From positions 1,760,303 through 1,824,302 of the forward strand of contig OZ251578.1 in NCBI GenBank assembly GCA_965243835.1: DNA of 64,000 nucleotides. Reading direction: 5' to 3'. Numbering within the stretch: position 1 is the first letter of the stretch; each line of letters starts with the position of its first letter. The notes under the pieces are model-generated. The model ran no database searches and was not told the origin of the DNA. It worked only from the letters and a program-made list of their open reading frames with translations. Origin of the DNA: Candidatus Spongiisociaceae bacterium. Its GTDB lineage: Bacteria; Actinomycetota; Acidimicrobiia; Spongiisociales; Spongiisociaceae. Of this stretch, positions 1,345 to 21,499 are shown in pieces. Made by a program: the position numbers and the translations under genes.

Positions 1345-1422
1345 ACCGGCACTATAGCGTAATCCAATCCGCCATAGCCGCCCGCGGCTACTTTTTCATA
1401 CGGGCTTGCGACATTCAAAAAT

Positions 1423-2238: not shown

Positions 2239-2264
2239 CCTCAGCGCCGGAGGGGCGACCGACT

Positions 2265-3047: not shown

Positions 3048-3936
3048 CTATCAATCCTAACTTGAATAGTCGGCCAAATGGTCGCAACAACGAATCGCTG
3101 GTCAACAATAACTGAGCGGCTCTCATAATCGTATGTTCTGAGCCAAAATTAGAACTTCCTAAATTAATATTGTTGTCTTTTAGTTTTTGATGAATACATC
3201 TATACCAACCTATTGATGGTATAGATTCGGGTATTTCACCATCATTGTCATCATCTAATTCACGAAAATAAGATAATACAGTAATCAAAGAACTCAAAAA
3301 GACGCTGGGAATAGTTGCGTTCCTAACGCCTCGTAACCTACGAAACATATCGATGGTATCCTGATTGGCAATAATATCTACAAATCGTTCATTATGGTCA
3401 ATTTTTAAATCAAACTCATCTACCTTATATTCATCCTGGTTATCTACTTTAAGTTTGAATAAACTGTCCACCTTCAATTGTTGTGGATTAACTACGAAAG
3501 ACCAAGAATTATCAACAGCCAAGGGTCGACCTTTCTCGATTGGTATAGATATATTACCATATTCAGTATGAGCGGTAGAAGTAGGAAAATTCTCGATAGT
3601 ATCACAGGCGACAATAGCCGGATGCACCTCCACTTGATTCCTTAGGTATCTCATAGATATAGTTTCCAGCAGGCAAAACCTGTTATTATCTAATGTAGTT
3701 TCCAACGGTTGACGGTACATAGTATCACGACAATATAACATCGCCAAACAGCGAGCTTGCGAGGTGAGGATATGCTCCTCTATGATTTCATCACTTATCA
3801 AAAATTCCAACTTCACTTCAACATTGCTGGAAGTTTGCCGATTTTCCAGTAAAGTAGAGAAACTACTCTTAGGATAATCATCGGAATGCGGCCTGATGAC
3901 AGGATAAAGATAGTGCCGGTTGGCATCGTATTTCAT
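3034..3936 (-). CDS. hypothetical protein (300 aa), AT-rich, no recognizable motif
   Basis: Long ORF in a low-GC segment. Tightly packed between the GHKL ATPase gene (2-nt gap) and the paralog gene (14-nt overlap). Confidence 0.5.
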   Translation of the reverse strand: MKYDANRHYLYPVIRPHSDDYPKSSFSTLLENRQTSSNVEVKLEFLISDEIIEEHILTSQARCLAMLYCRDTMYRQPLETTLDNNRFCLLETISMRYLRNQVEVHPAIVACDTIENFPTSTAHTEYGNISIPIEKGRPLAVDNSWSFVVNPQQLKVDSLFKLKVDNQDEYKVDEFDLKIDHNERFVDIIANQDTIDMFRRLRGVRNATIPSVFLSSLITVLSYFRELDDDNDGEIPESIPSIGWYRCIHQKLKDNNINLGSSNFGSEHTIMRAAQLLLTSDSLLRPFGRLFKLGLIDDAE

Positions 3937-3938
3937 TA

Positions 3939-5801
3939 CTACTCCTCAAAAAATCTTATGGAAAAAGTTTTATCTGTGACAGGTTCCCTGGTAAAAATTT
4001 CTATTTCCCGGCGTTCGCCTGGTTCCGCATCGGGCAAGGAAAATAAATTGTCATCTACAACTTGCAGCGATTCGCCTCCTACGCTGGCTTTCCTAATACC
4101 CATAGGATACTTCGTCCCATCCTCACCCACCGACAACATTTCTATCTTGGTTGGAGTAGTTTCGGGTTGCTCAAAAGCAACAATAACCGAATGTGCATCA
4201 CTTGATCCTTTTCTAAAACGAACTCCCACAAAACTTTGGGGCGTGGCTGTGGCTTGCCGCTTTTCACCTTTCTTGCCCTTTTCCTGTCCCAGTCTATAAG
4301 TACTTGTGTCACCATTACCCGGAGTTTCAGTCGGTTGTTTATCCCGTTTTTTGGATTTTGTCTTTTTGGGTCTCCATGGTGCTCTAAGACTCTGAACAGG
4401 GTCTGTAACGATTGGATCGCCTTGGTTATCGGATTGATCCCGTCCTGTATCTTGGGATTCATCGCCCTCAATAGGAAGAAACTCCGCGAGCTCGTCGACG
4501 CTTTCTGAATCTGAGCCGGGATCGGGCTCTACAAAGTCCTTAATCACCTGATAACACCACCTGCCTATTTCATCAAACAACCCCTTGGCCTTTTTGCGCA
4601 ATTTTTCATCGCTAATATTGTCTATGCTTATTTGATCGTGCCTCGGAGATTCTGCCTGCCTCAACAGGGCTTCCCCTTTAGACTTGCATTCTATGATAGC
4701 GGTAAACCCCCACCAATGAGTAGGAAGCATAGCTAACTTAGGGAATATATATTTCCGGTCGGTTGTGATAAGCATACCAGCATCTCGCACTAATGCTATT
4801 TTCTTGTTACGAGTTTCCTTATCTACTTCAATACGAATTGATATTTCTCCTACATCATCCGCAGTAAAACGATCCACCGGTGCTTCTAAAGAAACTCGTA
4901 TATAATTCCGAACCATTTTATCTTGGATATCCTGTAAATAGTGCTTGTATGTCTTCACATTTATTTTACTATCGCCTACATTTACTTCCAATCCGCCATG
5001 TATAATGGCATGAAAATAATTACTCAGAACAATATCTATACCCCGTTTTTCCCATTCCTCTAACCCATCAGTAAAAGAATATCCAGGTATGTGGATAGCT
5101 GTACCAGGTTTCTTTAATTTTAGGTCAACGGGGACTTTATCGTTCTTAAGGGAATCGAATCTCTTCCCAAGATATCCAACCCTTTTGTATGGAGTACCGC
5201 TTTTGCCTTCGTGAGATACTAATATGGCCTTCCCCATAAAGCGTTGTCGAAGATGTCCGTTCTCCAAAAAGGCGGTGTTATACAATACTGTTCGTAAGGG
5301 AGTAGCAACAAAAGAGGCGAATTTTCCTATACCAAAAGAACCGGCGGCGTCTTTTTGCGGTTTGTTTGTCAGCCCCTCGCCCTTAGTAAGAGTTTCCCAA
5401 AATGTCGGTCGGTTATTATTCTTTATGTCCGTAGCGCCGGTTGTATTACTATCCGTTATACACAAGGATTCAATTGGGCTACCCCCCCCCCCCAATAAAC
5501 CCTTTGCTTTTTCAAAACCGGGGAGATATTTTTCTTCATTGTGGGGAGAATCTATCGCATACTGAATATGCCGCGCCAAACTATCTGTCGCCAACAAAAC
5601 GCCGTCTAACATCTTGTGCTGAAAATTGACTACCACGGGACCGGTGCCGTCCGGGGCTTCGGCATCCAAAGAGTTCTGAATAGCCTCCCTGATGATGGAC
5701 GTTTCGCGGTCGCCGGTAAAATGGGCCATGCCGGGATGGGCCGGCCCCTCGATAGCACCGGCCTGGTTCTCTTCGAACTTCCATTTGAGGTTTTGGCTCA
5801 T
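3939..5801 (-). CDS. GHKL-superfamily (histidine-kinase/MORC-like) ATPase domain protein, about 620 aa; first gene of the operon
   Basis: N box REAIQNSLDA and G box GSFGIGKFASF of Bergerat-fold ATPases. Start assigned to ATG at 5801 (MSQNLKWKF); an alternative start is at 5840. Contains an in-frame G12 tract. Confidence 0.65.
   Translation of the reverse strand: MSQNLKWKFEENQAGAIEGPAHPGMAHFTGDRETSIIREAIQNSLDAEAPDGTGPVVVNFQHKMLDGVLLATDSLARHIQYAIDSPHNEEKYLPGFEKAKGLLGGGGSPIESLCITDSNTTGATDIKNNNRPTFWETLTKGEGLTNKPQKDAAGSFGIGKFASFVATPLRTVLYNTAFLENGHLRQRFMGKAILVSHEGKSGTPYKRVGYLGKRFDSLKNDKVPVDLKLKKPGTAIHIPGYSFTDGLEEWEKRGIDIVLSNYFHAIIHGGLEVNVGDSKINVKTYKHYLQDIQDKMVRNYIRVSLEAPVDRFTADDVGEISIRIEVDKETRNKKIALVRDAGMLITTDRKYIFPKLAMLPTHWWGFTAIIECKSKGEALLRQAESPRHDQISIDNISDEKLRKKAKGLFDEIGRWCYQVIKDFVEPDPGSDSESVDELAEFLPIEGDESQDTGRDQSDNQGDPIVTDPVQSLRAPWRPKKTKSKKRDKQPTETPGNGDTSTYRLGQEKGKKGEKRQATATPQSFVGVRFRKGSSDAHSVIVAFEQPETTPTKIEMLSVGEDGTKYPMGIRKASVGGESLQVVDDNLFSLPDAEPGERREIEIFTREPVTDKTFSIRFFEE
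5482..5493 (-). repeat. homopolymeric tract, C12 on + strand = G12 in the coding strand of the GHKL ATPase gene (encodes GGGG; currently in frame)
   Basis: 12 consecutive C at 5482-5493 inside an otherwise AT-rich gene. Confidence 0.9.
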
Positions 5802-5866
5802 AGCGGGCCCTATATTACACTGGTCGGGCGGGGAAGGCAAATCCGCCGTCCCGCCGAGGAGGACTG

Positions 5867-6856
5867 ATGACCAAATTCGCTTATTTCTGCGGCCATGAGC
5901 AGTGGCACCCGGAGCAACTGGTGGAGCATGCGGTGCGGGCCGAGCAGGCCGGGTTCGACATGCTGGTGGTGTCGGAGCACTTTCACCCCTGGGTGGACGA
6001 CGCCTCGGCCTCCGGCTTCGCCTACGCCACCATCGCCGCCATGGCCCAGGCCACCGAGCGGGTGGAGTTCACCACCGGGGTGACCACCCCCCTGTGGCGA
6101 TTCCATCCCGCCTTGGTCGCCCAGGCGGCCGCCACCCTGGACCGGCTGAGCGGCGGACGGTTCCGCCTGGGAGTGGGCACCGGCGAGAACATCAACGAAG
6201 GTCCGCTCGGATACCGCTTCCCCAAGTATGCGGAACGGGCCGCCCGAATGGACGAGGCCCTGCAAATAATGCGGCGGATGCTGGATGGGGAGAAACTCAC
6301 CTTCGAGGGCGAATATTACGTAACCGACAGGGCCAAACTCTACTCCCCTCCCCTGTCCCGGGTGCCGATCCTGATGGCGGCGGGCGGCCCCAAGTCGGCC
6401 CGGCTGGCCGGTCGGCGGGCGGATGGGGTGATCGTGTCGGTGAAAGACCCGGCGGACGCCATGGAGCGGGTAATCGGCCCCGTCCGGGAGGAGGCCGCCG
6501 CCCACGGCCGCCCCGCCCCCACCGTGCTCACCTCCCGGTGGGCGATCCTGGCCGGAGACGATGACGAGGCGTGGCAAGCGTTGTTTTCCTGGCGTGGCCT
6601 GCGGGCCCCGGGACGTCTGGAGGCGGTGGATCCGATGACCCTGCGGGAGCGGGCCGACGAGTTGCCCCGCTCCGAGGTGCTGGGCCGCTACGCCCGCACC
6701 GCCAACGCCGCCGACATCATCGACGTCTACACGCCGCTACTCAAAGACATCGACGCCGATGTGATAACCATTCAGATGGCCGCCGTCGACCAGGAAGCCC
6801 TCATCGATCTGCTGGGCGCCGAAGTGCTGCCCGCCCTACGCGCCGCCGCCTCGTAA
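5867..6856 (+). CDS. LLM-class F420-dependent oxidoreductase (luciferase-like monooxygenase family)
   Basis: Luciferase-like TIM-barrel motifs (FDMLVVSEHF, RFRLGVGTGE) typical of F420-dependent G6PD-like LLM enzymes. Confidence 0.75.
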   Translation: MTKFAYFCGHEQWHPEQLVEHAVRAEQAGFDMLVVSEHFHPWVDDASASGFAYATIAAMAQATERVEFTTGVTTPLWRFHPALVAQAAATLDRLSGGRFRLGVGTGENINEGPLGYRFPKYAERAARMDEALQIMRRMLDGEKLTFEGEYYVTDRAKLYSPPLSRVPILMAAGGPKSARLAGRRADGVIVSVKDPADAMERVIGPVREEAAAHGRPAPTVLTSRWAILAGDDDEAWQALFSWRGLRAPGRLEAVDPMTLRERADELPRSEVLGRYARTANAADIIDVYTPLLKDIDADVITIQMAAVDQEALIDLLGAEVLPALRAAAS

Positions 6857-9000
6857 ACCCGCCCGGAGATAAGCCCCGATCCCCCCGCACTCCCCAAAAA
6901 CGACCCCCTTGAATTTGCCGCCCACCTGAATTAAACTGAAAAGGCGGAGCAAAACTGAGGGCGGGCGGGTGGGGGGTGGGCGGGACCCCGCCTTCCGAAA
7001 AATTTTTCCGAGAACGCGAAAAAAATACCTATTTTCCCCAATATCTCCGTCAGGGGAACGCCCACCCGCGCTGGCGCCTCCCCCGGCCCCCGTCTTTGTC
7101 ACACCACCGGATTAAGGTAGGTAACCATGATGACATACGACACCCAACTAGCCCATCAACTCCTCCGAGCGGGCGCCGACGACCCGCACGCCGAGTCCGC
7201 CCGCAACAAGAGAAAGCCACCCGCTTCCTAATAACCCCGCCCGAGAAGAAGCACCGCTCCCCCGCACTCCCCAAAACGACCCCCTTGAATTTGTCACACT
7301 AGGCCATTAAAATTAAAGGCGGAGCAAAACTGGGGGCGGGCGGGTCCCCGCCTTCCGAAAATTATTTCCGAGAACGCGAAAAAAATACTTATTCTCCCCA
7401 ATATTTTCCGTCCGAGGAACGCCCACCCGCGCAGTGCCGTCCCTGCCTCCGTCTTTGACACCCCCGGATTAAGGTAGGCAACCATGACATACAACACCCA
7501 ACTAACCCACCAACTCCTCCGAGCGGGCACCGGCGACCCGCACGCCGCGTTCCACCCCCAACCAGAGGAAGCCACCCGCTTCCTAATAACCCCGCCCGAT
7601 GAGAAACACCGCTCCCCCCACACTCCCCAAAAACGACCCCCTTGAATTTGTCACACTCGGCCATTAAAATTAAAGACGGAGCAAAACTGGGGGCGGGCGG
7701 GCGGGGGGTGGGCGGGTCCCCGCCTTCCGAAAAATTTTTCCGAGAACGCGAAAAAAATACTTATATTTATTTCCGTCAGGGGAAACGCCCGCCGCGCCGG
7801 GTCCCGCGCCTTGGCCCCCGTCTTTGTCACACCACCGGATCAAGGTAGGCAACCATGACATACAACACCCAACTAACCCACCAACTCCTCCGAGCGGGCG
7901 CCGACGACCCGCACGCCGAGTTCCACCCGCAACAAGAGAAAGCCACCCGCTTCCTAATAACCCCACCCGAGGAGAAACACCGCTCCCCCCACACTCCCCA
8001 AAACGACCCCCTTGAATTTACCGCCCGCCTGAATTAAACTGAAAAGGCGGAGCAAAACTGGGGGCGGGCGGGACCCCGCCTTCCGAAAAATTTTTCCGAG
8101 AACGCGAAAAAAATACCTATTTCCCCCAATATCTCCGTCAGAGAAACGCCCACCCGCGCTGGCACCTCCCCCGGCCCCCGTCTTTGTCACACCACCGGAT
8201 CAAGGTAGGCAACCATGACATACGACACCCAACTAACCCATCAACTGCTCCAAGCGGGCGCCAGCGACCCGCACGCCGAGTTCCACCCGCAACAAGAGAA
8301 AGCCACCCGCTTCCTAATAACCCCACCCGAGGAGAAACACCGCTCCCCCCACACTCCCCAAAAACGACCCCCTTGAATTTGTCACACTCGGCCATTAAAT
8401 TAAAAAGGCGGAGCAAAACTGGGGGCGGGCGGGCGGGGGGTGGGCGGGTCCCCGCCCTCCGAAAATTTTTTTCCGAGAACGCGAAAAAAATACTTATTTT
8501 TCCCAATATTTCCGTCAGGGGAACGCCTGCCGCGCCGGGTCCCGCGCCTTGACCGCCATCTTTGTCACACCACCGGATCAAGGTAGGCAACCACAACATA
8601 CGACACCCAACTAGCCCATCAACTCCTCCGAGCGGGCACCAACGACCCGCACGCCGCGTTCCACCCGCAACAGGAGAAAGCCACCCGCTTCCTAATAACC
8701 CCACCCGAGGAGAAACACCGCTCCCCCCACACTCCCCAAAAACGACCCCCTTGAATTTGTCACACTCGGCCATTAAATTAAAAAGGCGGAGCAAAACTGG
8801 GGGCGGGCGGGCGGGGGGTGGGCGGGTCCCCGCCCTCCGAAAATTTTTTTCCGAGAACGCGAAAAAAATACTTATTTTTCCCAATATTTCCGTCAGGGGA
8901 ACGCCTGCCGCGCCGGGTCCCGCGCCTTGACCGCCATCTTTGTCACACCACCGGATTAAGGTAGGTAACCATGATGACATACGACACCCAACTAGCCCAT
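6857..9000 (+). repeat. tandem array A: about 5.8 direct copies of a 355-380-bp cassette. Each copy holds a promoter-like element, a G-rich leader, an A5T5 palindrome, an RBS, and the start codon plus about 30 codons of the downstream helicase gene
   Basis: Motif cactccccaaaa(a)cgacccccttgaatttg recurs at about 6887, 7263, 7621, 7991, 8351 and 8731. ATGACATAC start-like segments recur at 7127, 7484, 7855, 8215 and (ATG lost) 8590; the real start is at 8971. Two unit subtypes alternate 1,2,2,1,2,2, implying a higher-order duplication of about 1.1 kb. Copies differ by several percent. Confidence 0.9.
8751..8779 (+). promoter_or_regulatory. sigma70-like promoter candidate (TTGAAT-N17-TAAATT) of the last cassette, about 190 nt upstream of the helicase start; equivalent hexamers are in every cassette
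   Basis: -35 TTGAAT at 8751-8756, 17-nt spacer, -10 TAAATT at 8774-8779. The same architecture (TTGAAT-N17-TAAAAT) is at 7642-7670 and in the other units. Confidence 0.4.
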
Positions 9001-11067
9001 CAACTGCTCCGGGCGGGGGCCGGCGACCCGCGCGCCGGGTTCCGCCCCCAACAGGAGGAGGCCATTCGTTCCCTGGTCGGGGGCCGGGCCCCGAACCGGC
9101 TGTTGCTGGTTCAGAAAACCGGATGGGGCAAAAGCTTCGTCTACTTCATCGCCACCAAGCTCCTGCGCCGACAGGGGAAGGGGCCGGTCCTGCTCATTTC
9201 GCCCCTGTTGGCGTTGATGCGCAACCAGATCGCGATGGCGGAGCGTTTGGGAGTGGCGGCCGCCGCCATCCACTCCGGCAACAAACCGGAATGGAAGAGC
9301 GTGGTCGAGCGACTGTCCCGGAACGAAATCGACATTCTGCTGATCTCGCCCGAACGGTTGGCCAATCAAAAATTTAGGGAAGACGTGTATGCGCCCCACC
9401 TAAGCCAACCAGGTATGTGGGTGGTGGACGAAGCCCACTGCATATCGGACTGGGGGCATGACTTCCGACCGGATTACCGGCGGATCGAGGGCCTGGTCCG
9501 CGGCCTGCCCCCCAATGTTCCGTTGCTGGCCACCACCGCCACCGCCAATGACCGGGTGGTGGACGACCTAGAGCAAATACTGGGGCCGGATCTGCGAATT
9601 ATGCGGGGCGACCTGGACCGGCCGTCCCTGCGTCTGCAAACCATCGCCATGCCCTCCCCCCGGGATCGCTTGGCCTGGTTGGCGGAGAATGTTCCGCAAC
9701 TGCCCGGCAACGGCGTGATTTACACCTTGACCGTCCGGGATGCGAAGCGGGTGGCCCGGTGGTTGCAAAGTTGCGGAGTGGATGTCCGCGCCTACACCGG
9801 CTCCACCGACCCGGCGGAAAGGCCGGTTCTGGAAAATGCCCTGCTGGACAATCGGCTGAAAGCCTTGGCGGCCACCTCCGCCTTGGGCATGGGTTTCGAC
9901 AAACCGGATTTGGGGTTCGTCATTCACTATCAGGCCCCCGGATCGGTGATCGCCTACTACCAGCAGGTGGGCCGGGCGGGGCGCGGCATCGGCGAGGCCC
10001 GCGGTGTGCTGTTGAGCGGCGTCGAGGACCAGGACATCATCGATTACTTCCGCGAAAACGCCTTCCCGACCCGGGCGGAAGTGAAGGAAATGCTGGCCGC
10101 TCTTAGGAGAGCGAAGGACGGGCTGTCGTTCTACGACCTGGAAACCAGGGTCAACCTCAACAGCTACCGCTTGCGCCAAACCCTGAAATTGATGGAGTTG
10201 GAGACCCCGGCTCCGTTGGCCCGGCAGGATTCGGTCTATCAACTGACCCCGCATCGTCTGGGAGCGGGCTTCTGGGAGCGCGTGGAACGTCTCAACCGAC
10301 TGCGCCGGGAGGAGCAGGCTGAAATGCGGGAATACGTCGGGCTTGCATCGGGGCATATGAACTTTCTCATCAAGGCCCTCAACGGCTCCCCCGCCGCCGG
10401 CGATGACCCGCCGACCCTGCCGCCCCTTCCCACCACCATTTCCGGAAAACACCGGGTGGCCGCCGAGGATTTCCAAAAACGCGACTGGTATAGCATCGCG
10501 CCGCGTAAAAAATGGCCGAGGGGCGGCCTCCCCCGACTCGGCGTCCGCGGCCCCATCCCAGAAGACCGCAAATACCAACGGGGACGGGCCCTTAGTTTGT
10601 GGGGATTCGGCGCTCTCGGTCGGCTGGTAAAACAGGGAAAATACCAAGACGCCCGCTTCCCGGATCAATTGGTGGAAGATTGCCGGCGAATGTTCCGCGA
10701 CTGGAACCCGCAACCAACGCCGCGCTGGGTCGCCTGCGTGCCTTCACACAGCCATCCCGACCTGGTACCCGATTTCGCCCGGCGGCTGGCGGACGCCCTG
10801 GGTCTCCCCTTCCGCTCCGTACTGGAAAAAACCGGCAAAAACCGTCCCGCCCAAAAAGTTATGAACAACAGCAGGATGAGGGCCGACAACGCGGACGGAG
10901 CGTTCCGGGTAAACGACCGCCTGATGGGCCCGGAATACGGGGAACCGGTACTGCTGGTGGATGACGTTGTGAATTCAAGATGGACGATGACCGTGTGCGC
11001 CTGGCTGTTGCTGACGCAGGGAAGCGGCGAGGTGTTTCCGTTGGCCTTGGCGCAGGCGGGGGACTAA
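8971..11067 (+). CDS. RecQ-family DNA helicase fused to a C-terminal ComFC/GntX-like phosphoribosyltransferase (PRTase) domain
   Basis: RecQ motifs: PQQEEAI, TGWGKSF (Walker A), DEAHCISDWGHDFRPDY, LATTATA, YQQVGRAGRGIG. C-terminal about 130 aa carries ComFC-like motifs (NADGAFRV ... VLLVDDVVNS), characteristic of type-I PRTase/ComF proteins. Confidence 0.8.
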   Translation: MMTYDTQLAHQLLRAGAGDPRAGFRPQQEEAIRSLVGGRAPNRLLLVQKTGWGKSFVYFIATKLLRRQGKGPVLLISPLLALMRNQIAMAERLGVAAAAIHSGNKPEWKSVVERLSRNEIDILLISPERLANQKFREDVYAPHLSQPGMWVVDEAHCISDWGHDFRPDYRRIEGLVRGLPPNVPLLATTATANDRVVDDLEQILGPDLRIMRGDLDRPSLRLQTIAMPSPRDRLAWLAENVPQLPGNGVIYTLTVRDAKRVARWLQSCGVDVRAYTGSTDPAERPVLENALLDNRLKALAATSALGMGFDKPDLGFVIHYQAPGSVIAYYQQVGRAGRGIGEARGVLLSGVEDQDIIDYFRENAFPTRAEVKEMLAALRRAKDGLSFYDLETRVNLNSYRLRQTLKLMELETPAPLARQDSVYQLTPHRLGAGFWERVERLNRLRREEQAEMREYVGLASGHMNFLIKALNGSPAAGDDPPTLPPLPTTISGKHRVAAEDFQKRDWYSIAPRKKWPRGGLPRLGVRGPIPEDRKYQRGRALSLWGFGALGRLVKQGKYQDARFPDQLVEDCRRMFRDWNPQPTPRWVACVPSHSHPDLVPDFARRLADALGLPFRSVLEKTGKNRPAQKVMNNSRMRADNADGAFRVNDRLMGPEYGEPVLLVDDVVNSRWTMTVCAWLLLTQGSGEVFPLALAQAGD

Positions 11068-12125
11068 TGACCTGGCCGCTTCTGCCCAATACACAGGCGA
11101 TTCTGCTTTTGACCGCGCCCCTGCTGGCGGGAGGGGAGGGCGACGTAGCCGAACGGTTAAACTTGCGGGGATACCGAAAACTGGAAGAACATCTGCGCGG
11201 TCGGGGGCGCGATCTAGCCGACCTGTTGCTGGAGGACCCGGAGGAGGTTCTGGGGGAAAGCCCGCCCTGCGACATCGGGAGAATCAAGGACCTGCTACGG
11301 AGGGGAGGGCGTCTGGCGGCGGCCGTCGACCATTGGAGCACGCGCGCCATCTGGGTGATCAGCCGCTTCGACGAGGAATACCCGCGCCGCTTCCGCACTC
11401 GCCTCGCCGGCTCGGCCCCTCCTCTGCTGTACGGGTGCGGGGACCGGTCGCTCCTCAACCGGGGGGGATTGGCGGTGGTGGGGCCGCGCCAAGCGGACGA
11501 AGACGCCCTGAAATTCGCCCAGTGGACGGGAGGCTTGACCGCCCGGGCCGGGTTTCCTTTGATTTCCGGCGGGGCGCGGGGTGTGGACCGGGCGGCTATG
11601 ACCGGGGCCATGGAAGCGGGCGGGCAGGCGGTGGGGGTGCTGGCGGGTAAACTGGAAAAAGAAATAATGACCCGCGACCGGCGGGATTGGATTCTGGAGG
11701 AGCAGATGTTGATGGTCTCCCCCTACGACCCCGGGGCCGGTTTTCACCGCGGGACTGCTATGGGACGCAACAAGTTGATCTACAACCTGGCCGACGCCGC
11801 CCTGGCGGTGGAAGCGGACCCCAAACGGGGCGGAACCCGCGCCGGGGCGATGAACCAACTGCAGGCCAACCGCAAACAACCCGACCGACAGGTTCCCATA
11901 TACGTACGGGACATCCCCAGCCCCGGCCTGGACTCCCTGCGGGAAAACGGAGCGCAAACCTGGCCCGACCCGGAAACAGCCGACGAACTAAAAAACATCC
12001 TGGACAGCGCAACGGTATTTGACTCTCCGGACCACTCCCAACCTCGCCCACCTGTCATCCCGGCTGATGAGCTATTTCCCGAAACCAGTCAACAGCAACC
12101 ATTGCCCCTCGGTGCCGGAGGGTAA
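11067..12125 (+). CDS. dprA: DprA/Smf-family protein (DNA-processing protein A; SLOG/Rossmann fold), translationally coupled to the helicase gene
   Basis: Start ATG overlaps helicase stop (TAATG at 11065-11069). DprA SAM-like N-domain (EYPRRF..APPLLYGCGD) and Rossmann core (LAVVGPRQA, ISGGARGVDRAAMTGAMEAGGQAVGVLAGKL, SPYDPGAGFHRGTAMGRNKLIYNLADAALAVEA). Confidence 0.7.
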   Translation: MTWPLLPNTQAILLLTAPLLAGGEGDVAERLNLRGYRKLEEHLRGRGRDLADLLLEDPEEVLGESPPCDIGRIKDLLRRGGRLAAAVDHWSTRAIWVISRFDEEYPRRFRTRLAGSAPPLLYGCGDRSLLNRGGLAVVGPRQADEDALKFAQWTGGLTARAGFPLISGGARGVDRAAMTGAMEAGGQAVGVLAGKLEKEIMTRDRRDWILEEQMLMVSPYDPGAGFHRGTAMGRNKLIYNLADAALAVEADPKRGGTRAGAMNQLQANRKQPDRQVPIYVRDIPSPGLDSLRENGAQTWPDPETADELKNILDSATVFDSPDHSQPRPPVIPADELFPETSQQQPLPLGAGG

Positions 12126-12560
12126 CTACTCCTCCGCATCATCAATATTGTTAGGGTTCATAGACTCCGCCAACTGCTCTACTTGGTTTATCAATAATTC
12201 AATCTCGGGAACAGTAGGTACCAAATCATATTCGTGATGGTGACAGGCCCGACTTAGGGCTACCCAAGCGGAGTGGGCATCTTCGGATGTCACAGTATCA
12301 ACTGCAACCCTACCGTCTCGGGCTAATTGCTTAAGACAAGCAAGTTGCGTAAACCGGCTTGTATTCTTCATATAGCGATAATAGTAATGGTCATTCCAAA
12401 GTCTGTCCAGTGTCGCTTCAAGAACTTGGCGAGTCAGCAAAGCCGCCGCCCGATGCCATTCGCCTCGCGGCCCATCAGTATGGTTGAGTAAACCCCGAGC
12501 GAGGTTTAGTAGGTCAAGGGTCATAACGACGTAATCTTTCGGCCAAACTTTGACAATCAT
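12126..12560 (-). CDS. small His-rich hypothetical protein (144 aa), downstream partner of the Rad50/SMC-like ATPase
   Basis: AT-rich ORF overlapping the upstream gene by 47 nt; no recognizable motif. Confidence 0.45.
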   Translation of the reverse strand: MIVKVWPKDYVVMTLDLLNLARGLLNHTDGPRGEWHRAAALLTRQVLEATLDRLWNDHYYYRYMKNTSRFTQLACLKQLARDGRVAVDTVTSEDAHSAWVALSRACHHHEYDLVPTVPEIELLINQVEQLAESMNPNNIDDAEE

Positions 12561-14922
12561 TAATTAGATTAGCCAAATCACCAGAATATTTACTATGAGT
12601 ACCTTTATTAGTATCGCTGAATACCTCTGCAAATCTCTTCCCCCATTTACTGGAGATTTTACCAAACACTTTGTCGCTTTTATTAATACTATCAAATAAC
12701 GCTACAGAGGCTTTCTGACTTAATTTCTTGGCCTCGAATAACTCTTGTTCAATCACCTGATGAGTTTTACCTTTATCCAGCCATCGTCGCCATACTGCTT
12801 CCACACAGGCGGCTTCTAATCCGCTACGACAAAACCCTGGAATAACCCGCCTTGCTATATCCTCTAGCATATCATCATCCTTCAAAATGGACCGTGCCTC
12901 AAAAAAATATTGAATAACCGGATCGCGCTTTTCCGCAATAGTAACTTTCGATTTTACCGATCTCCTAACCTCTAGACAATGGTGTTCAATATCTAAATGA
13001 CGTAAAGACTCCGGGAGTCGATTGTCGTGAGTGAACACAATTAGTTGACGACTCTTGGCAACCTTGGCGAATACTCTGGCTAGTCCATCAACCCGAGCAG
13101 GGTCCATAGATTGTATCGGATCGTCAATAACCAAAAAGCGAAAGGGACTAGCGGGAAGCATTACCCGGGGAAAGAAAATGGACAAAGCCAAACTGTTTAT
13201 TTCTCCTTGACTAACCACAGACAAGGCATCTGTCTTAATATCATCCACTTCCACCCCAAGGGCCACTCTACGTTTAGTGCGACTACCAGTTAGTTGAACG
13301 GAAAGTAAATCAACGTTGCTTTCCAAACGTAGTTCTTTCCAAATTTCCAAGGCCTGGTTCTCTATAGGAGACCAACGGGTGTTACGTATATTTTCGTTTA
13401 CTTCTTTAAGATATTTTTCTGCCCTTTTTAGGTTAGTAATTTCTGATTGCTCTCTCCTTACTCGACAGGCTTTGTGAACCCAAGGCGAAAGAATAGACAT
13501 AGCCGCTAGCCACTTTTCTTCTCTATCAGAGTACAACTGACGAGCTTGTTCAATAATTTTATTTGCTTCACTTTCGACCGAGGAGTATAATGTAAGCAAG
13601 TGTTCATCTATTTCACTTTTATCGTCAGGCAACGAACTCCACTTTTTCCAAATAGAAACCAGCGAACCTATCTCTATAGTTTCAGTGTCGGACAATAGAG
13701 GAGGTTCTATCAAAATCTCAACCTCCTTTATTACGTTTTCCAGATTACTTTTGGCATCCCTATATTTTTGAGAGCTTGCTTTCAGTCTTTCTATCTGCTC
13801 TTCTACTTTGGTAACCCAACTACTATCCAAAATACCTTCTTCGCAAACTGGACAACGATTGTTCTCGTGTGTGCCATAATATTTCAAAGCCAGATTTAAT
13901 ATACTCATTAAGTTTTCGGCGTGCTCTGCTTCCGTACCAGATAAGTTAGACCAATCTGTATATGCCTTGTTCAGTTTTTTTGCTATTTTCAATACTTGCT
14001 CTTGATTTGGAACCTTGATATTTATAAGAGTTTGTAAATCCTGATGATAAGTAACTGGCTCCGATTGAAGACTTTTTATAATATCCAAGTCCCAATTTCG
14101 TTTCTTGACAGCTTCCACAACTTTTGTTGCACGCGGGTCTTCTAGTTGCTCAAACTGGGGAAGAATATTATTTTTTCGTTCTGCCTCTACCTGGTTTGCC
14201 AGTTTTTCTCGTGCTAATCGGGTATTAGCTAAAGCTTTCATCGCTTGGGCAATAATACCAATACCGAGTACTTTGCTGAGAGTGTCATGCAGGGATGACG
14301 GACTATTTTCAATGATGCCAAGTTCCTTATACGATAAAATGGGGCGATATAAATCAAGTGGTTCTTTCCAACCTATTCCATCTAGATCGGAAATTTCCTT
14401 TCCATGATGTTGCGCACTGCATTTTCCTTCTTCCAGTTCGGAATTTTGGGACCAAGTGCACTCTACCATAGTTGGTTTATTCATTCCTTCTACTTGAAAT
14501 CTGGCGGATATTTTGGTATTATTGCCCTGATGGAGATTCCGCCAGCCTTGCTTCCAAACTACCGCTTTTTTGCTTTCCCAGCGATAGCTATCCCCGGTTA
14601 ACAATACTTCCAATCCTTCTGCGAAGCTGGACTTGCCGGAGCCGTTTCTGCCTACAACGACCGTAAGACCCGGGCCGGGAGGTATCTCCAATGTGGCCTC
14701 CGGTCCGATACCGCGAAACCCGGATACCGTTATGTCCTGTAGGTAAACAGGCGGAACCAGCTCTCCGTTGTCCGACATCGTATCGGGTCCATCTACGTAT
14801 TCATCAGTTAAGACGCGCTCCACGTCATCCTCACCCCTGAGGGCGGCTAGCACCAGGCTTATAATCTGCTCGTCTTTAGTAAGTTTGGCGAGCTCTTGTT
14901 CTACTTCTTGATAGAGGCCCAT
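12514..14922 (-). CDS. Rad50/SbcC/SMC-like ABC ATPase with a central CxxC zinc hook (802 aa)
   Basis: Walker [13 protein letters not shown] signature VSQGE, Walker B RFLVIDDP, H-loop IVFTHD, long coiled-coil middle with NRCPVCEEG zinc-hook motif. AT-rich relative to flanks. RBS AGGAGGGG 5 nt before ATG at 14922. Confidence 0.7.
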   Translation of the reverse strand: MGLYQEVEQELAKLTKDEQIISLVLAALRGEDDVERVLTDEYVDGPDTMSDNGELVPPVYLQDITVSGFRGIGPEATLEIPPGPGLTVVVGRNGSGKSSFAEGLEVLLTGDSYRWESKKAVVWKQGWRNLHQGNNTKISARFQVEGMNKPTMVECTWSQNSELEEGKCSAQHHGKEISDLDGIGWKEPLDLYRPILSYKELGIIENSPSSLHDTLSKVLGIGIIAQAMKALANTRLAREKLANQVEAERKNNILPQFEQLEDPRATKVVEAVKKRNWDLDIIKSLQSEPVTYHQDLQTLINIKVPNQEQVLKIAKKLNKAYTDWSNLSGTEAEHAENLMSILNLALKYYGTHENNRCPVCEEGILDSSWVTKVEEQIERLKASSQKYRDAKSNLENVIKEVEILIEPPLLSDTETIEIGSLVSIWKKWSSLPDDKSEIDEHLLTLYSSVESEANKIIEQARQLYSDREEKWLAAMSILSPWVHKACRVRREQSEITNLKRAEKYLKEVNENIRNTRWSPIENQALEIWKELRLESNVDLLSVQLTGSRTKRRVALGVEVDDIKTDALSVVSQGEINSLALSIFFPRVMLPASPFRFLVIDDPIQSMDPARVDGLARVFAKVAKSRQLIVFTHDNRLPESLRHLDIEHHCLEVRRSVKSKVTIAEKRDPVIQYFFEARSILKDDDMLEDIARRVIPGFCRSGLEAACVEAVWRRWLDKGKTHQVIEQELFEAKKLSQKASVALFDSINKSDKVFGKISSKWGKRFAEVFSDTNKGTHSKYSGDLANLINDCQSLAERLRRYDP

Positions 14923-14975
14923 TTACCCCTCCTTGGAGATGCCGTCCCATTCAGTATACCGCACTGATGTTCGGC

Positions 14976-15482
14976 TCAGGCGGGGAGGGTTCCGGTTTTC
15001 AAAAGGTTACGGCGGCGGGCGGGGTCGGACAGGCGGCAACGGCGCCATAGCCAAAGCAGGTAGGCCAGGCCCGCCGCCTCCTGGAGCAGGAGCGGCCAGC
15101 GGAAATTTGTCCAGTCGTTGGGGACCCCGACCGGGAACTCCCAGCCGAAAAAGGGCCAGAGCAGGGTGTCGCGGAGCGTCCACATTCCGTCCAGCAACAG
15201 GTGAAACATCACTCCCACCGCCAACGCCATCCATCGTCTGCGGGACGGCCTCCCGCGCCGGGTCGCAATCAACACCGTCACCAGCAGAACGGCGAAGAAC
15301 AGCAACGTGTGGCCGAAGATGCGGCCCGTCCCGAACGCGCCCGCCCCGAAAACCAAACCCGTGGGCTTGTCCAACAGGTCGGGCAAAACGGCCCCCGCCA
15401 GCAGGAAACGCACATCCACCGCCGGGTCCCGGAACAGGTAACGGAACAGGAACAGCGACCCCCCCAGATGCCAAAACAGCAT
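14976..15482 (-). CDS. membrane-bound metal-dependent hydrolase (YdjM/DUF457-like)
   Basis: Several TM segments, conserved His/Asp pattern similar to LexA-regulon YdjM-type inner-membrane hydrolases. Confidence 0.4.
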   Translation of the reverse strand: MLFWHLGGSLFLFRYLFRDPAVDVRFLLAGAVLPDLLDKPTGLVFGAGAFGTGRIFGHTLLFFAVLLVTVLIATRRGRPSRRRWMALAVGVMFHLLLDGMWTLRDTLLWPFFGWEFPVGVPNDWTNFRWPLLLQEAAGLAYLLWLWRRCRLSDPARRRNLLKTGTLPA

Positions 15483-16205
15483 TCAGGGAACCACCACCGC
15501 CCGGCAGTGTATGCAACGGGGCGGAAACTCCTCCACCACCTCCTCGTATTCGGCCATGGACATTTCCATATGGCAGGCCCCGCAACTGCGTCCGTTCAAA
15601 GCCCCCACCACCACCCCGCCCCGCCGCTCCCGCAACTCCTCGTACAATTCCATCAGATCCGGAGGCACCAGCGGGGCGATTTCATCCCGGCGGGCGTCCT
15701 GCGCCGCCAACCGGACGTCGATCTCCGACCGCCTGCTCCGGATCGTCTCCGCCAGCGAACGTTCGGTCCGCTCCGCCTCCTCCGCCTCCTCCTCCGCCTC
15801 CCCGGCGGCCGCGGCCGTCTTCTCCCGCTGCTCCAAAAGTTCCAACAGTTCGTCCTCCGTAACGGAGTTCTGGCGGCGCAGGCTGTCCACTTCCATCCGC
15901 ATATTCTGCGTCTCCCGGGCCCCCATCCCCCCGGCGAACAGCCGTCTTTCCCGCTCCCCGAGGGTCCGCTCGGCCAACTGCAACTCCCCTTCCACCCGGC
16001 TCGTCTCCCGGTCCGCTTCCCGCAACCGTTCCGCCGTCTGTTCGCGGGCCGCCGCCGTCGCCGCCGCCGTTTGGACGGCCGCGGCGTGCTCGGCCAATTC
16101 GGGCATTCCCTCCCGTTCGGCGAGCAACCGGTCCGTCACCGAATCCACCGCCTGCAAGTCCAACAGGTCGGACAAACCGGGCAACTCGTTCATACCGCCT
16201 CCCAC
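15483..16205 (-). CDS. zinc-ribbon/coiled-coil protein (COG1579-type), partner of Nif3
   Basis: Coiled-coil region plus C-terminal CxxC...CxxC (CGACHMEM ... CIHCRAV). Conserved neighborhood with the Nif3 gene. Confidence 0.6.
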   Translation of the reverse strand: MGGGMNELPGLSDLLDLQAVDSVTDRLLAEREGMPELAEHAAAVQTAAATAAAREQTAERLREADRETSRVEGELQLAERTLGERERRLFAGGMGARETQNMRMEVDSLRRQNSVTEDELLELLEQREKTAAAAGEAEEEAEEAERTERSLAETIRSRRSEIDVRLAAQDARRDEIAPLVPPDLMELYEELRERRGGVVVGALNGRSCGACHMEMSMAEYEEVVEEFPPRCIHCRAVVVP

Positions 16206-17005
16206 GGGTGATCGTTCGGATCGCTCAAATAATCCACCGCGGCCGCCTCCCCCGCCAGCGCCCCGGCTGTGAAATCATACAGCCCGCGCACCCCGGGACG
16301 CTCGGTCGGGATATGCCCGGCGTCGATCACCGCCATCCCCCAGTCCAACCCGAGGCGGGCCTGGTGATGGGAAACATCGCCGGTTACATAAACGTCGGCC
16401 CCGGCCGCGGCCGCTTCTTCCATGAACGAGCCGCCCGCGCCGGGCAGGACCGCCACCCGTCCCGCCGGGGCGTCCCCCCGCAACCGCTCCCCCGGGCCGG
16501 CCCGCCGGGGGGCGCAACCCAACTTTTCCCGCACCGTCTCCGCCAACCGGCCGGCGCTCCCCGCAAAAAGCCCCACCCGGCCCAGCCAACACTCCGCCCC
16601 GGCGGTTTCCAACTCCGCGAACCGGCCGTCCTCCTCCGACTCCAACCCCAGGGCGGCGGCCAGGGCGTCGGCGCATCCCCCCGGGGCCGCATCCCAGTTG
16701 GTGTGCACCGCGATTACGCTCACCCCCGCCTCCAGCAAGGCCAGCGTCCGACCCTCGGGGCCGGGACGGTCCCGCACCGCGGACAGGGGACGGAACAGCA
16801 ACGGATGGTAGGTGACCGCCAAATCGTATCCGCCGTCCGTGATCCGCCCGGCCGCGGCGGAGGTAATTTCATGGACGACCGCCGCCCGCCCTATCCGCCG
16901 TCGCAAGCCCCCCGCCTGCAAACCCACCGCGTCCCAGACGGCGGCGGAGGCGAAAGGAGCCCGACGGTCCAGCGCCTCCAGCAGGTCTTGGATCAGAAAA
17001 GCCAT
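16190..17005 (-). CDS. Nif3-like dinuclear metal center protein (YqfO/GTP cyclohydrolase 1 type 2 family)
   Basis: Nif3 family motifs (AVTYHP, VHTNWD, GDVSHH) and conserved pairing with the COG1579 zinc-ribbon gene. Confidence 0.75.
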   Translation of the reverse strand: MAFLIQDLLEALDRRAPFASAAVWDAVGLQAGGLRRRIGRAAVVHEITSAAAGRITDGGYDLAVTYHPLLFRPLSAVRDRPGPEGRTLALLEAGVSVIAVHTNWDAAPGGCADALAAALGLESEEDGRFAELETAGAECWLGRVGLFAGSAGRLAETVREKLGCAPRRAGPGERLRGDAPAGRVAVLPGAGGSFMEEAAAAGADVYVTGDVSHHQARLGLDWGMAVIDAGHIPTERPGVRGLYDFTAGALAGEAAAVDYLSDPNDHPWEAV

Positions 17006-21322: not shown

Positions 21323-21396
21323 GGGCGTTTAGCTCAGTCAGGGAGAGCGCTTCCCTTACAAGGAAGAGGTCGGCGGTTCGAACCCGTCAACGCCCA
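21323..21396 (+). tRNA. tRNA-Val (anticodon TAC)
   Basis: Manual cloverleaf folding: acceptor GGGCGTT/AACGCCC, D-arm GCTC-AGTCAGGGA-GAGC, anticodon stem CTTCC/GGAAG with loop CTTACAA, T-arm GGCGG-TTCGAAC-CCGTC, discriminator A; CCA not encoded. Confidence 0.85.
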
Positions 21397-21499
21397 CTCT
21401 TTCCCTCGTCCGCGTTCGCCGGTCCGCGCCGGCGGGTCCGGTTGCGGGGGGAGCTGGGGAAACGCATGAAATAGAAACTTCTTTAGAAGGAGTCGTCCG

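What the first reader, a model, noticed from the sequence alone, without database searches (positions are those of the whole stretch)
12126..14922. AT-rich two-gene island: Rad50/SbcC-like ABC ATPase with CPVC zinc hook plus a 144-aa His-rich partner
The 802-aa protein has complete ABC ATPase motifs (Walker [10 protein letters not shown], signature SQGE, Walker B FLVIDDP, H-loop FTHD). These are split by a long coiled-coil carrying a CxxC zinc-hook-like motif (NRCPVCEEG), i.e. a mini Rad50/SbcC. It has no SbcD/Mre11 nuclease partner. Instead it has a 47-nt-overlapping small gene of unknown fold. GC content is far below the flanks. SMC/Rad50-like ATPases with small effector partners are a recurring theme in anti-plasmid and anti-phage systems (Lamassu, Wadjet, DndD-like). 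This particular pairing is not one I can name.
Basis: partly seen in the sequence, partly recalled or inferred. Interest (0 to 1): 0.65.

Follow-up and report, generated by a model that had tools for sequence, protein, structure and literature searches.

The report
RloC-like zinc-hook ATPase with paralogous partner
A horizontally acquired two-gene module in a bacterial defence island encodes a Rad50-like, zinc-hook ATPase whose tail resembles the nuclease domain of the tRNA-cutting immunity protein RloC, plus a small stand-alone copy of that tail; the pair is widespread, unnamed and probably a new variant of an anti-phage system.

Summary
An 802-aa ABC ATPase (12514-14922, minus) and a small gene (12126-12524/12560) form an AT-rich insert (GC 0.43 vs 0.65). 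(1) The ATPase has RloC's architecture: Rad50-like head, coiled coil with an invariant CPVC hook, and a C-terminal all-helical domain with an invariant Arg-x3-Glu...His triad (R699/E703/H776, 103/103), the motif that defines the RloC/PrrC anticodon nucleases. (2) The small protein is a free-standing paralogue of that domain (hhalign E=4e-5, controls 0.2) with the same triad (R44/E48/H107). (3) The pair lies between two other defence modules, PsyrTA and PDC-M33. The pair is conserved in 79 of 80 loci across phyla, usually with overlapping, translationally coupled genes and no third gene. About 13% of its nearest neighbours are defence genes. No Pfam or PADLOC model covers the small protein or the C-domain. 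AAA_13 and LmuB matches are weak. The HEPN-like fold is only suggested (Foldseek E>0.1). Best reading: a DNA-sensing ATPase controlling an RNase built from the fused domain and its paralogue. This is a new variant of a known kind, with function untested.

The parts
12514..14922 (-). Gene for the 802-aa RloC-architecture ABC ATPase. Layout: N-terminal extension 1-58, head N-lobe 59-215, coiled-coil arms 216-350 and 371-530, hook 351-370, head C-lobe 531-659, C-terminal domain 660-802.
   Evidence: ORF. Pfam SMC_N/AAA_21/AAA_15/AAA_23. Family of ~800-aa proteins. Alignment A2.
14926..14934 (-). Shine-Dalgarno AAGGAGGGG, 3 nt upstream of the ATG at 14922. A TATACT -10-like hexamer lies at 14953-14958 in the 53-nt gap after the ydjM-like gene.
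   Evidence: Read directly from the sequence. The promoter assignment is inferred only.
14626..14652 (-). Walker [10 protein letters not shown] (res 91-99; K97).
   Evidence: Invariant G91, N93, G94, G96, K97, S98, S99.
13843..13854 (-). CPVC zinc-hook-like motif (res 357-360) at the apex between two low-Pro/Gly, helix-prone arms.
   Evidence: C357, P358 and C360 invariant, V359 >=90%. Local HMM matches of res 330-405 to arcadin-4 (E=1.7e-8) and of 230-514 to Rad50 models. Arm composition.
13201..13212 (-). ABC signature SQGE (res 571-574).
   Evidence: Invariant.
13117..13137 (-). Walker B/D-loop start, FLVIDDP (res 596-602). The Walker B is the Asp-Asp type.
   Evidence: D600, D601 and P602 invariant. 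The GkaRloC ATPase-dead mutant is D572N.
13024..13035 (-). H-loop FTHD (res 630-633).
   Evidence: T631 and D633 invariant, F630 and H632 >=90%.
12517..12945 (-). C-terminal all-helical domain (res 660-802) with the triad R699 (12826-12828), E703 (12814-12816), H776 (12595-12597). Proposed RNase (ACNase/HEPN-like) module.
   Evidence: Triad conserved 103/103, 103/103 and 100/100. AF2 pLDDT 91, pTM 0.86, 7 helices. Top Foldseek hits are HEPN proteins but E>=0.95. No Pfam or PADLOC hit.
12126..12524 (-). Gene for the small (132-aa) stand-alone paralogue of the C-terminal domain; the longest ORF extends to 12560 (144 aa). Triad in 144-aa numbering: R44 (12429-12431), E48 (12417-12419), H107 (12240-12242). 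Motif S103-R-A-C-H-H-H-x-Y111.
   Evidence: ORF. Family alignment and conserved start. Triad 100/106, 98/106 and 105/106. hhalign to the C-domain: probability 70%, E=4e-5, against reversed controls E~0.2. AF2 pLDDT 83. Found downstream of the ATPase in 79/80 loci. 1198 representatives at 50% identity.
12514..12524 (-). Gene junction ATGACCCTTGA: the small-gene start codon overlaps the ATPase stop codon (11 nt), indicating translational coupling.
   Evidence: Sequence. In related loci the commonest junction is a 4-nt overlap (29/78).

Best explanation
The two genes form an autonomous, translationally coupled module of the defence-island type. Shown: the large protein combines a Rad50/SbcC-like ABC ATPase head, a ~300-residue helical insert with an invariant CPVC hook, and a C-terminal ~140-residue helical domain with an invariant Arg-x3-Glu...His triad. 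The small protein is a free-standing paralogue of that domain with the same triad. The pair is conserved as a unit across phyla, without a third gene. Inferred, by analogy with the anticodon nuclease RloC (same architecture; triad essential for tRNA cleavage; nuclease switched on by ATP plus linear DNA; hook mutations de-repress it) and with Lamassu (Rad50-like sensor of DNA ends holding an effector in check): the dimeric ATPase senses abnormal DNA, such as phage DNA ends or replication intermediates. ATP-driven rearrangement of heads, coiled coil and hook then activates a metal-independent RNase built from the triad-bearing domains. Because HEPN-type RNases generally act as dimers, the active or latent unit is most likely a heterodimer of the fused C-domain with its small paralogue, made 1:1 by coupled translation. 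RNA cleavage (tRNA anticodon loops are the obvious candidate) stops translation and aborts infection. Approximate likelihoods: real operon 0.97; conflict/defence role 0.75; RNase effector 0.5; tRNA target 0.3; DNA-end trigger 0.4.
For: - Motifs and the invariant hook are; hook-region matches to Rad50 and arcadin-4 models are.
- The triad is invariant over ~100 members of each family.
- It fits RloC's published definition, Arg-X3-Glu-X36-52-His, with R692/E696/H737 in an 804-aa protein. Here it is R699/E703/H776 in 802 aa.
- Most small proteins have a Glu-to-His spacing of 52, the upper end of RloC's range.
- Paralogy of the small protein and the C-domain: hhalign E=4e-5, 109 colinear columns, reversed controls E~0.2. 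The two AF2 models have the same helix order.
- Both models return HEPN proteins as their best Foldseek PDB matches.
- The pair is present in 79/80 loci, no third gene recurs, and overlapping junctions are common.
- The small protein co-evolves best with the C-domain: partial r 0.53, against 0.41-0.42 for the arms and ~0.09 for the hook and N-extension.
- Defence context: PsyrTA and PDC-M33 flank the pair in the window. R-M and other systems lie nearby in L081 and L087. About 19 of 150 nearest neighbours in 38 loci are strong PADLOC hits.
- The locus was acquired horizontally in this lineage.
- The ATPase diverges fast (62% identity) while its neighbours stay 94-99% identical.
Against: - No statistically significant link to RloC/PrrC or HEPN was obtained. 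Foldseek E-values are 0.17-5.
- Pfam AAA_13 is absent for the window protein. In homologues it is sub-threshold (24-27 bits against a cutoff of 36) and confined to the signature/Walker-B segment.
- The isolated domains hit nothing in Pfam, PADLOC or PDB sequence searches.
- The C-domain Glu-to-His spacing is 72, outside RloC's 36-52.
- The canonical HEPN Arg of Rx4-6H is only 63/106 in the small protein and is absent from the C-domain.
- A three-residue motif is weak evidence on its own.
- RloC works without a partner, so the precedent does not explain the small gene.
- Two of the seven inspected contexts have no defence neighbours.
- No multimer model and no experiment exists.
Confidence: 0.45

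Rival explanations
1. Lamassu-type logic without an RNase. The ATPase is an LmuB-like DNA-end sensor. The two helical modules are non-catalytic docking or oligomerisation domains, like the 5-6-helix LmuA C-terminal domain or the small LmuC protein that sit at the hook-proximal coiled coil. The toxic activity would then lie elsewhere, or would be DNA-directed through the ATPase itself.
For: The best defence-model hit is LmuB PDLC03859 (E=7e-24, covering 23-590 of 611 profile positions). LmuB has a functional zinc hook and a deviant Walker B. [quoted passage not shown] The small protein here is a 6-helix bundle.
Against: No LmuA or LmuC model matches the small protein, even at E<=10. The gene order is ATPase then small gene, not lmuA-lmuC-lmuB. 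No effector gene recurs. Absolute invariance of a charged Arg/Glu/His triad in both modules is what one expects of catalysis, not of docking. LmuB scores of ~60-85 bits are what generic ABC heads give.
Confidence: 0.2
2. Toxin-antitoxin-like reading. The fused C-domain is the only nuclease. The small paralogue is a decoy dimer partner, i.e. an inhibitor or antitoxin that occupies the dimer interface until the ATPase senses infection.
For: Paralogy and co-evolution with the C-domain. Coupled translation. R44 is lost (Gly) in a few small proteins while the C-domain triad is never lost. RloC papers anticipated 'cognate silencing partners'.
Against: The small protein's own triad is retained in 94-99% of members, which is unexpected for a pure decoy. 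No instability or protease-linked features were tested.
Confidence: 0.2
3. Housekeeping DNA repair or chromosome maintenance by an SbcC/RecN/RecF-like protein, with the small protein as an accessory factor.
For: SMC_N and RecF N-terminal matches, and Rad50/SMC heads as the best PDB sequence hits.
Against: All NCBIfam equivalog scores are far below cutoff (e.g. Rad50 23 bits vs 1087). There is no SbcD/Mre11. Distribution is patchy and acquisition is horizontal. Neighbourhoods are defence-island type. Divergence is rapid relative to neighbours.
Confidence: 0.05
4. The Cys/His-rich motif (C75, C106, H107-H109) makes the small protein a metal-binding or redox-sensing regulator rather than a nuclease.
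For: The CHHH motif. Hemerythrin-like FBXL5 domains appear among the weak Foldseek hits.
Against: C75 (65/106), C106 (73/106), H108 (75/106) and H109 (84/106) are not invariant, whereas R44/E48/H107 are nearly so. TM-scores to hemerythrins are ~0.37, against 0.54-0.55 to HEPN proteins.
Confidence: 0.05

Closest known systems
RloC (wobble-nucleotide-excising anticodon nuclease; Davidov & Kaufmann 2008, PMC2610378; Klaiman 2012, PMC3458546)
   Same: Length is about the same (802 vs 804 aa). The order of elements matches: ABC head (Walker A Lys, Asp-type Walker B), coiled-coil insert with a CxxC zinc hook, and a C-terminal all-helical domain with an Arg-X3-Glu...His triad. The landmarks align: K97/C357/D600/R699-E703-H776 here against K44/C291/D572/R692-E696-H737 in GkaRloC. 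It is also found in defence contexts.
   Different: No significant sequence membership: AAA_13 is sub-threshold or absent. The Glu-to-His spacing is 72 rather than 36-52. There is a 58-aa N-terminal extension. RloC is a single-gene system, whereas this family always carries a stand-alone paralogue of the nuclease-like domain. Activity is untested.
PrrC (tRNA-Lys anticodon nuclease of the EcoprrI locus)
   Same: An ABC ATPase fused to a C-terminal ACNase with an Arg-x3-Glu...His triad (R320/E324/H356). The nuclease is held latent by a partner.
   Different: PrrC lacks the coiled-coil/zinc-hook insert. Its silencing partner is a type Ic R-M enzyme, not a small paralogue.
Lamassu (LmuA-LmuC-LmuB / DdmABC)
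   Same: A Rad50-like ATPase with a zinc hook and a deviant Walker B acts as a sensor of DNA ends. Small helical partner proteins bind it. The effector is kept inactive until sensing. LmuB is the best PADLOC hit.
   Different: There is no LmuA or LmuC homologue and no separate effector gene. The gene order differs. Here the candidate effector domain is fused to the ATPase and duplicated as the small gene. The predicted target is RNA rather than DNA.
Other ABC-HEPN fusions (APECO1_4465, ERFG_01251 families; Anantharaman 2013, PMC3710099)
   Same: An ABC ATPase N-terminal to a HEPN-type RNase domain in conflict systems.
   Different: Those were described as single proteins. No zinc-hook coiled coil or paralogous free HEPN partner is reported in the text read here. 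Direct sequence comparison was not possible.
Rad50-Mre11 / SbcCD
   Same: Head, coiled coil and CxxC hook architecture. The hook region gives local HMM matches to Rad50 and arcadin-4.
   Different: There is no Mre11/SbcD nuclease. An extra C-terminal domain is present. Distribution and context are not those of a housekeeping gene.

Membership tests
RloC | ABC ATPase head with Walker A, signature, Asp-type Walker B and H-loop | tested here: met
   [20 protein letters not shown] and FTHD are invariant or nearly so in 33 sequences. Pfam ABC-type AAA families match.
RloC | Coiled-coil insert in the head bearing a CxxC zinc hook | tested here: met
   C357 and C360 are invariant. Flanks match Rad50/arcadin-4 hook regions. 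The arms are low in Pro/Gly. Zinc binding and the coiled coil itself are inferred, not shown.
RloC | C-terminal domain with the catalytic triad Arg-X3-Glu-X36-52-His | tested here: inconclusive
   R699-x3-E703 and H776 are conserved in 103/103, 103/103 and 100/100 sequences, but the Glu-to-His spacing is 72, outside the published 36-52. The small paralogue has a spacing of 52-58.
RloC | Sequence membership in the PrrC/RloC family (Pfam AAA_13, PF13166; the assignment of RloC to this Pfam family is from my own knowledge) | tested here: not met
   No AAA_13 hit for the window protein at E<=0.01. Homologues score 24-27 bits against a cutoff of 36, only over profile positions 489-570. The C-domain alone hits nothing at E<=10.
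RloC | Acts as a single protein with an internal switch | tested here: not met
   An obligatory downstream partner gene is present in 79/80 loci.
RloC | tRNA anticodon-loop cleavage activated by ATP plus DNA | not testable with these tools
   This needs biochemistry.
Lamassu | LmuB SMC/Rad50-like ATPase | tested here: inconclusive
   PDLC03859 gives E=7e-24 and 83 bits over 23-590 of 611 positions, with similar values for Actinomycetota members. The score is low and comparable to other generic ABC models (mad3, PDC-S06).
Lamassu | LmuA effector with a conserved CTD, encoded upstream; usually also LmuC | tested here: not met
   The small protein has no LmuA or LmuC hit even at E<=10. No third gene recurs in 80 loci.
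Rad50/SbcCD | Adjacent Mre11/SbcD nuclease, and an equivalog-level match to Rad50/SbcC | tested here: not met
   Neighbours are a ydjM-like gene and PsyrA. Rad50 models score 22-23 bits against cutoffs of 1000-1087.
HEPN superfamily | All-alpha four-helix-core fold | tested here: inconclusive
HEPN superfamily | Rx4-6H motif | tested here: not met
   The window's small protein has R104-x4-H109, but R104 is conserved in only 63/106 members. The C-domain has no conserved Arg 4-6 residues before H776. The conserved His and an upstream acidic residue are present.
PADLOC v2.0.0 catalogued or candidate systems | Full-length match of both proteins to the models of one system | tested here: not met
   Searches give only partial ABC-head matches, and nothing for the small protein.

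The most novel reading that the evidence does not exclude
The module is a hybrid of RloC and Lamassu logic, a 'split HEPN' immune switch. The small paralogue is held as an inactive heterodimer on the ATPase's own C-terminal domain. When the Rad50-like part senses phage DNA, the paralogue is released or re-paired (small:small or C-domain:C-domain) to form the active RNase. The hypervariable coiled-coil arms would be the surface under phage counter-selection. This would be a previously undescribed way of gating a HEPN-type nuclease by paralogue exchange, in a system family with more than 1,000 sequence clusters that includes Mycobacterium, Nocardia and Streptomyces.
Probability: 0.2. Interest if true: 0.75.

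Novelty: new variant of a known kind. Interest (0 to 1): 0.55.

Why it matters
If confirmed, this adds a widespread defence module. The small protein alone has at least 1,198 clusters at 50% identity. The module is present in Actinomycetota (Mycobacterium, Nocardia, Streptomyces), Acidobacteriota, Chloroflexota, Dormibacterota and others, and it is missing from the 2023 PADLOC models. It would extend the RloC paradigm, in which a DNA-damage-sensing Rad50-like switch controls an RNase, to a two-component form. It would also offer a simple system for asking how HEPN-type nucleases are gated by dimer partners, and why the coiled-coil arms of such sensors evolve so fast. For annotation, it gives a name and a testable function to two large families that currently read 'AAA family ATPase' and 'hypothetical protein'.

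Tried and rejected
- Direct comparison with genuine RloC/PrrC was not possible. The HEPN-paper supplement held no alignments. The RloC supplement gave only an OCR-noisy coiled-coil alignment, and using its QUERY rows as bait returned nothing.
- Pfam and PADLOC searches with the isolated C-domain and small protein at E<=10 found nothing. NCBIfam at E<=0.01 found nothing for the small protein.
- PDB sequence-profile searches with both domains gave only spurious weak hits: 4mkm, E=5e-4 from two repeats that are each individually non-significant.
- PADLOC candidate PDC-S06 was considered as an already catalogued identity and rejected. Its matches are partial (~40-50 bits, signature/Walker-B region), even for Streptomyces members.
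- Phage carriage was tested on IMG/VR. Only 5 short head-motif matches appeared, and no family member.
- A non-coding RNA component was tested with Rfam over 6000-15600 at E<=0.1 and found nothing.
- General linkage to PsyrTA was rejected. It holds only in the window's own lineage (L083-L085) plus two weak cases.
- AT-richness as a family trait was rejected.
- An exact look-up of the small protein's contig found no record, so the host remains an unnamed ~3.18-Mb high-GC genome.
Full report
**1. The observation**

The window carries two overlapping minus-strand ORFs, 802 aa at 12514..14922 and 144 aa at 12126..12560. They sit in a sharp GC trough of 0.38-0.46, against 0.62-0.72 on either side. 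The pair is 0.433 and the flanks are 0.653.

In a 33-member alignment reaching down to 38% identity, all are invariant or nearly so: Walker [10 protein letters not shown], signature SQGE, Walker B FLVIDDP, H-loop FTHD and the CPVC motif (C357, P358, C360 invariant).

The ATPase gene has a strong Shine-Dalgarno sequence (AAGGAGGGG) just upstream of its ATG.

Most homologues of the small protein start at the window protein's Met13. That start is ATG 12524, which overlaps the ATPase stop by 11 nt (ATGACCCTTGA). The 47-nt overlap is therefore probably an artefact of taking the longest ORF.

**2. Is the pair a unit?**

The ATPase belongs to a large family of proteins of constant length, about 800 aa. 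A scan of one genome per species returned 80 loci with ATPases 30-39% identical to the window's. They come from Actinomycetota (Nocardia, Streptomyces, Mycobacterium, Micromonospora, Pseudonocardia), Acidobacteriota, Chloroflexota, Dormibacterota, Gemmatimonadota, Myxococcota and others.

In 79 of the 80 loci, an HMM of the small protein finds a homologue directly downstream on the same strand. The one exception is a contig that ends 95 nt after the ATPase.

All-against-all clustering of the flanking ORFs found no third gene that recurs beyond genus-level synteny. The commonest junction is a 4-nt start/stop overlap, in 29 of 78 loci.

An exhaustive profile search found 1,198 representatives of the small protein at 50% identity with E<=1e-3, and 733 with E<=1e-10. 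All top hits are stand-alone proteins of about 105-165 aa. So this is a widespread, self-contained, translationally coupled two-gene module.

**3. What the large protein is**

Pfam sees only generic SMC/ABC families: SMC_N, AAA_21, AAA_15 and AAA_23. NCBIfam gives far-sub-threshold hits to RecF, Rad50 and SMC. It also gives a locally significant match of residues 330-405, the hook region, to the Rad50-like arcadin-4 (E=1.7e-8) and to Rad50 coiled-coil regions. PDB sequence hits are to SMC and Rad50 heads only.

The arms on either side of CPVC are poor in Pro and Gly (0.04-0.06) and rich in Glu, Lys, Arg, Gln, Leu and Ala. This fits a Rad50-type antiparallel coiled coil. That conclusion is inferred, because no full-length model was made.

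They have their own invariant residues, PGFCR..LEAAC and N.G.H. Across 103 sequences, R699 and E703 are present in all 103, and H776 in all 100 that align there. An AlphaFold2 model of residues 660-802 is confident (pLDDT 91, pTM 0.86) and all-helical.

**4. The RloC connection**

An ABC head, a coiled-coil/CxxC hook and a C-terminal helical domain with an Arg-x3-Glu...His triad together make up the published description of RloC. G. kaustophilus RloC is 804 aa. Its ACNase motif is 'Arg-X3-Glu-X36-52-His', with R692, E696 and H737. Each of those residues is essential for tRNA cleavage and for toxicity. Hook mutations (C291G) hyper-activate it. Its nuclease is switched on by ATP plus linear DNA, and K44N and D572N are its ATPase-dead mutants.

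The landmarks correspond closely: K97, C357, D600, R699, E703 and H776 in 802 aa here.

The HEPN superfamily analysis classifies the PrrC and RloC nuclease domains as divergent HEPN domains, and it notes other ABC-HEPN fusions.

For both of my independent models, the best Foldseek PDB matches are HEPN proteins (HepT toxins 7bxo and 6m6u, SsR10 2q00, 1wwp, HI0074 1jog, 8xeh, sacsin 3o10). However, E-values are 0.17-5 and TM-scores 0.3-0.59, so none is significant.

Sequence models do not place the family in PrrC/RloC. AAA_13 is absent for the window protein. In homologues it scores 24-27 bits against a cutoff of 36, and only over the signature/Walker-B segment. The Glu-to-His spacing in the C-domain is 72, outside RloC's range.

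I therefore file the protein as 'works like, and is built like, RloC', not as a member of the RloC family.

**5. What the small protein is**

It has no Pfam, NCBIfam or PADLOC match. Its model is a confident six-helix bundle (pLDDT 83) with the same order of helices as the C-domain model.

A profile-profile comparison of the two families, using ~100 sequences each, gave hhalign probability 70% and E=4e-5 over 109 colinear columns. It placed R-x-A-L-E on R-x-A-L-E, and the S-R-A-C-H motif on N-x-G-x-H. Reversed-sequence controls gave E~0.2 over at most 30 columns. A first try with shallow alignments had given E=0.003.

The small protein keeps the same triad: R44 in 100/106, E48 in 98/106 and H107 in 105/106. 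The 'canonical' HEPN arginine R104 is conserved in only 63/106. In most members, which lack the window clade's 6-residue insert, the Glu-to-His spacing is 52, the upper end of RloC's published range.

Across 78 loci, the small protein's pairwise distances track those of the C-domain best. The correlation is r=0.85, and the partial r controlling for head distances is 0.53, with 0 of 500 permutations reaching it. The equally fast-evolving arms give 0.41-0.42, and the hook and N-extension about 0.09.

So the small gene is a free-standing paralogue of the ATPase's own C-terminal domain, and it probably partners with that domain.

**6. Context**

In the window, the pair is convergent with, and abuts without any spacer, the known PsyrTA defence/TA pair: PsyrT at 8971-11067 (E=2.5e-253) and PsyrA at 10980-12125 (E=1e-97). 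Further left lies a full set of the PADLOC candidate system PDC-M33.

Three related genomes share the synteny FabH-MTase-NIF3-CT398-YdjM-pair-PsyrA-PsyrT. Other contexts vary:
- L081 is an R-M/Mrr/deaminase island.
- L087 has ResIII and an N6/N4 methyltransferase.
- L082 and L086 are neutral, metabolic surroundings.

A batch PADLOC scan covered the two nearest genes on each side in 38 de-replicated loci. About 19 of the 150 genes matched strongly (E<1e-48). The matches span diverse systems: SngC, ZacC, type I/IIG/II R-M, RmrA/T, AbiEii, MzaC, mad3, Dnd Orf5, HEC-06 and PDC candidates. By my own rough expectation, not measured here, this is well above a background of a few per cent.

The family is absent from IMG/VR viral contigs. 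No Rfam RNA lies in the island.

The low GC is lineage-specific.

Between the window genome and its close relative, the neighbouring genes are 94-99% identical, PsyrT and PsyrA 93% and 91%, and the small protein 89%. The ATPase is only 62% identical. The divergence is concentrated in the coiled-coil arms (58-66%, plus a 113-aa indel), while the heads are 82-92% and the C-domain 85%. This pattern is typical of arms-race genes.

**7. Comparison with catalogued systems**

PADLOC v2.0.0 gives as its best hit an LmuB model (83 bits, E=7e-24). Then come mad3, PDC-S06, AriA, HEC-01A, GajA and PtuA, all through the ABC head. The same holds for Streptomyces, Mycobacterium and Micromonospora members, and the small proteins hit nothing.

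Lamassu is a relevant mechanistic precedent. LmuB is Rad50-like with a functional zinc hook. It senses DNA ends and, together with the small LmuC, sequesters the LmuA effector until activation. But this module has no LmuA or LmuC homologue and no separate effector gene, and its gene order differs, so Lamassu membership fails.

**8. Mechanism proposed**

Shown: the architecture, the invariant triads, the paralogy, the operon conservation, and the defence-type context.

Inferred: the Rad50-like dimer senses aberrant DNA. ATP- and hook-dependent rearrangement then activates an RNase formed by the triad-bearing helical domains, most plausibly a heterodimer of the C-domain and the small protein. 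RNA cleavage, perhaps of tRNA anticodon loops, aborts infection.

Rivals are a non-catalytic Lamassu-like docking role, a decoy/antitoxin role for the small protein, housekeeping repair, and a metal sensor. They are weighed in the relevant fields.

**9. Verdict**

This is a real, widespread, un-named two-gene module. It is best described as a two-component variant of the RloC type of ABC-HEPN defence protein. The evidence for the RNase fold and for RloC kinship rests on motifs and architecture, not on statistical significance, and no function has been tested.

Noticed in passing
window 6843-9064: A tandem array of about 6 copies of a 354-381-nt unit (TRF period 378, 85% matches), directly upstream of and running into the PsyrT start (ATG 8971). 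Each unit repeats the first ~30 codons of PsyrT plus ~280 nt of upstream sequence. It has strong negative GC skew and no Rfam match. It may be an amplified leader/promoter or a regulatory or decoy element of PsyrTA.
   Followed up: partly
window 8971-12125 (+): A complete PsyrTA (RqlHI-type) pair: PsyrT is a RecQ-like helicase with a PRTase-like C-terminus (E=2.5e-253), and PsyrA is DprA/SLOG-like (E=1e-97). It is convergent with the target pair. The PsyrA stop (TAA 12123-12125) abuts the small gene's stop (12126-12128) with no spacer.
   Followed up: partly
window 550-5840 (-): Full-length matches to PADLOC candidate system PDC-M33: A at 3939-5840 (E=3e-72), B at 3034-3936 (E=1.5e-37), C at 2265-3047 (E=3e-18), and a second C-like gene at 550-1344. 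This makes about 15 kb with three adjacent known or candidate defence modules.
   Followed up: partly
window 13330-14275 (ATPase residues 216-530); compare L083:5355-8096: The coiled-coil arms are hypervariable between near-identical genomes: 58-66% identity plus a 113-aa insertion in the relative's N-arm, while flanking housekeeping genes are 94-99% identical. This suggests diversifying selection or segment exchange.
   Followed up: partly
window 14749-14922 (ATPase residues 1-58): A family-conserved N-terminal extension (pattern LVLAAL.G...E.VL.G) precedes the ABC head. It has no family match, and Walker-A numbering implies it is absent from GkaRloC. Its function is unknown.
   Followed up: no
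window 21323-21397 (+): A single tRNA-Val(TAC) gene about 6.4 kb from the island. No integrase or att-like repeat was looked for, so it is not established as an integration site.
   Followed up: no
L081:7866-9116 and 15073-16222: In one homologous locus the pair is flanked on both sides by other AAA_15/AAA_21 ATPase genes, plus a dCMP-deaminase-like gene and BglII/Mrr/methyltransferase genes. This makes a dense defence island with several ABC-ATPase systems side by side.
   Followed up: no
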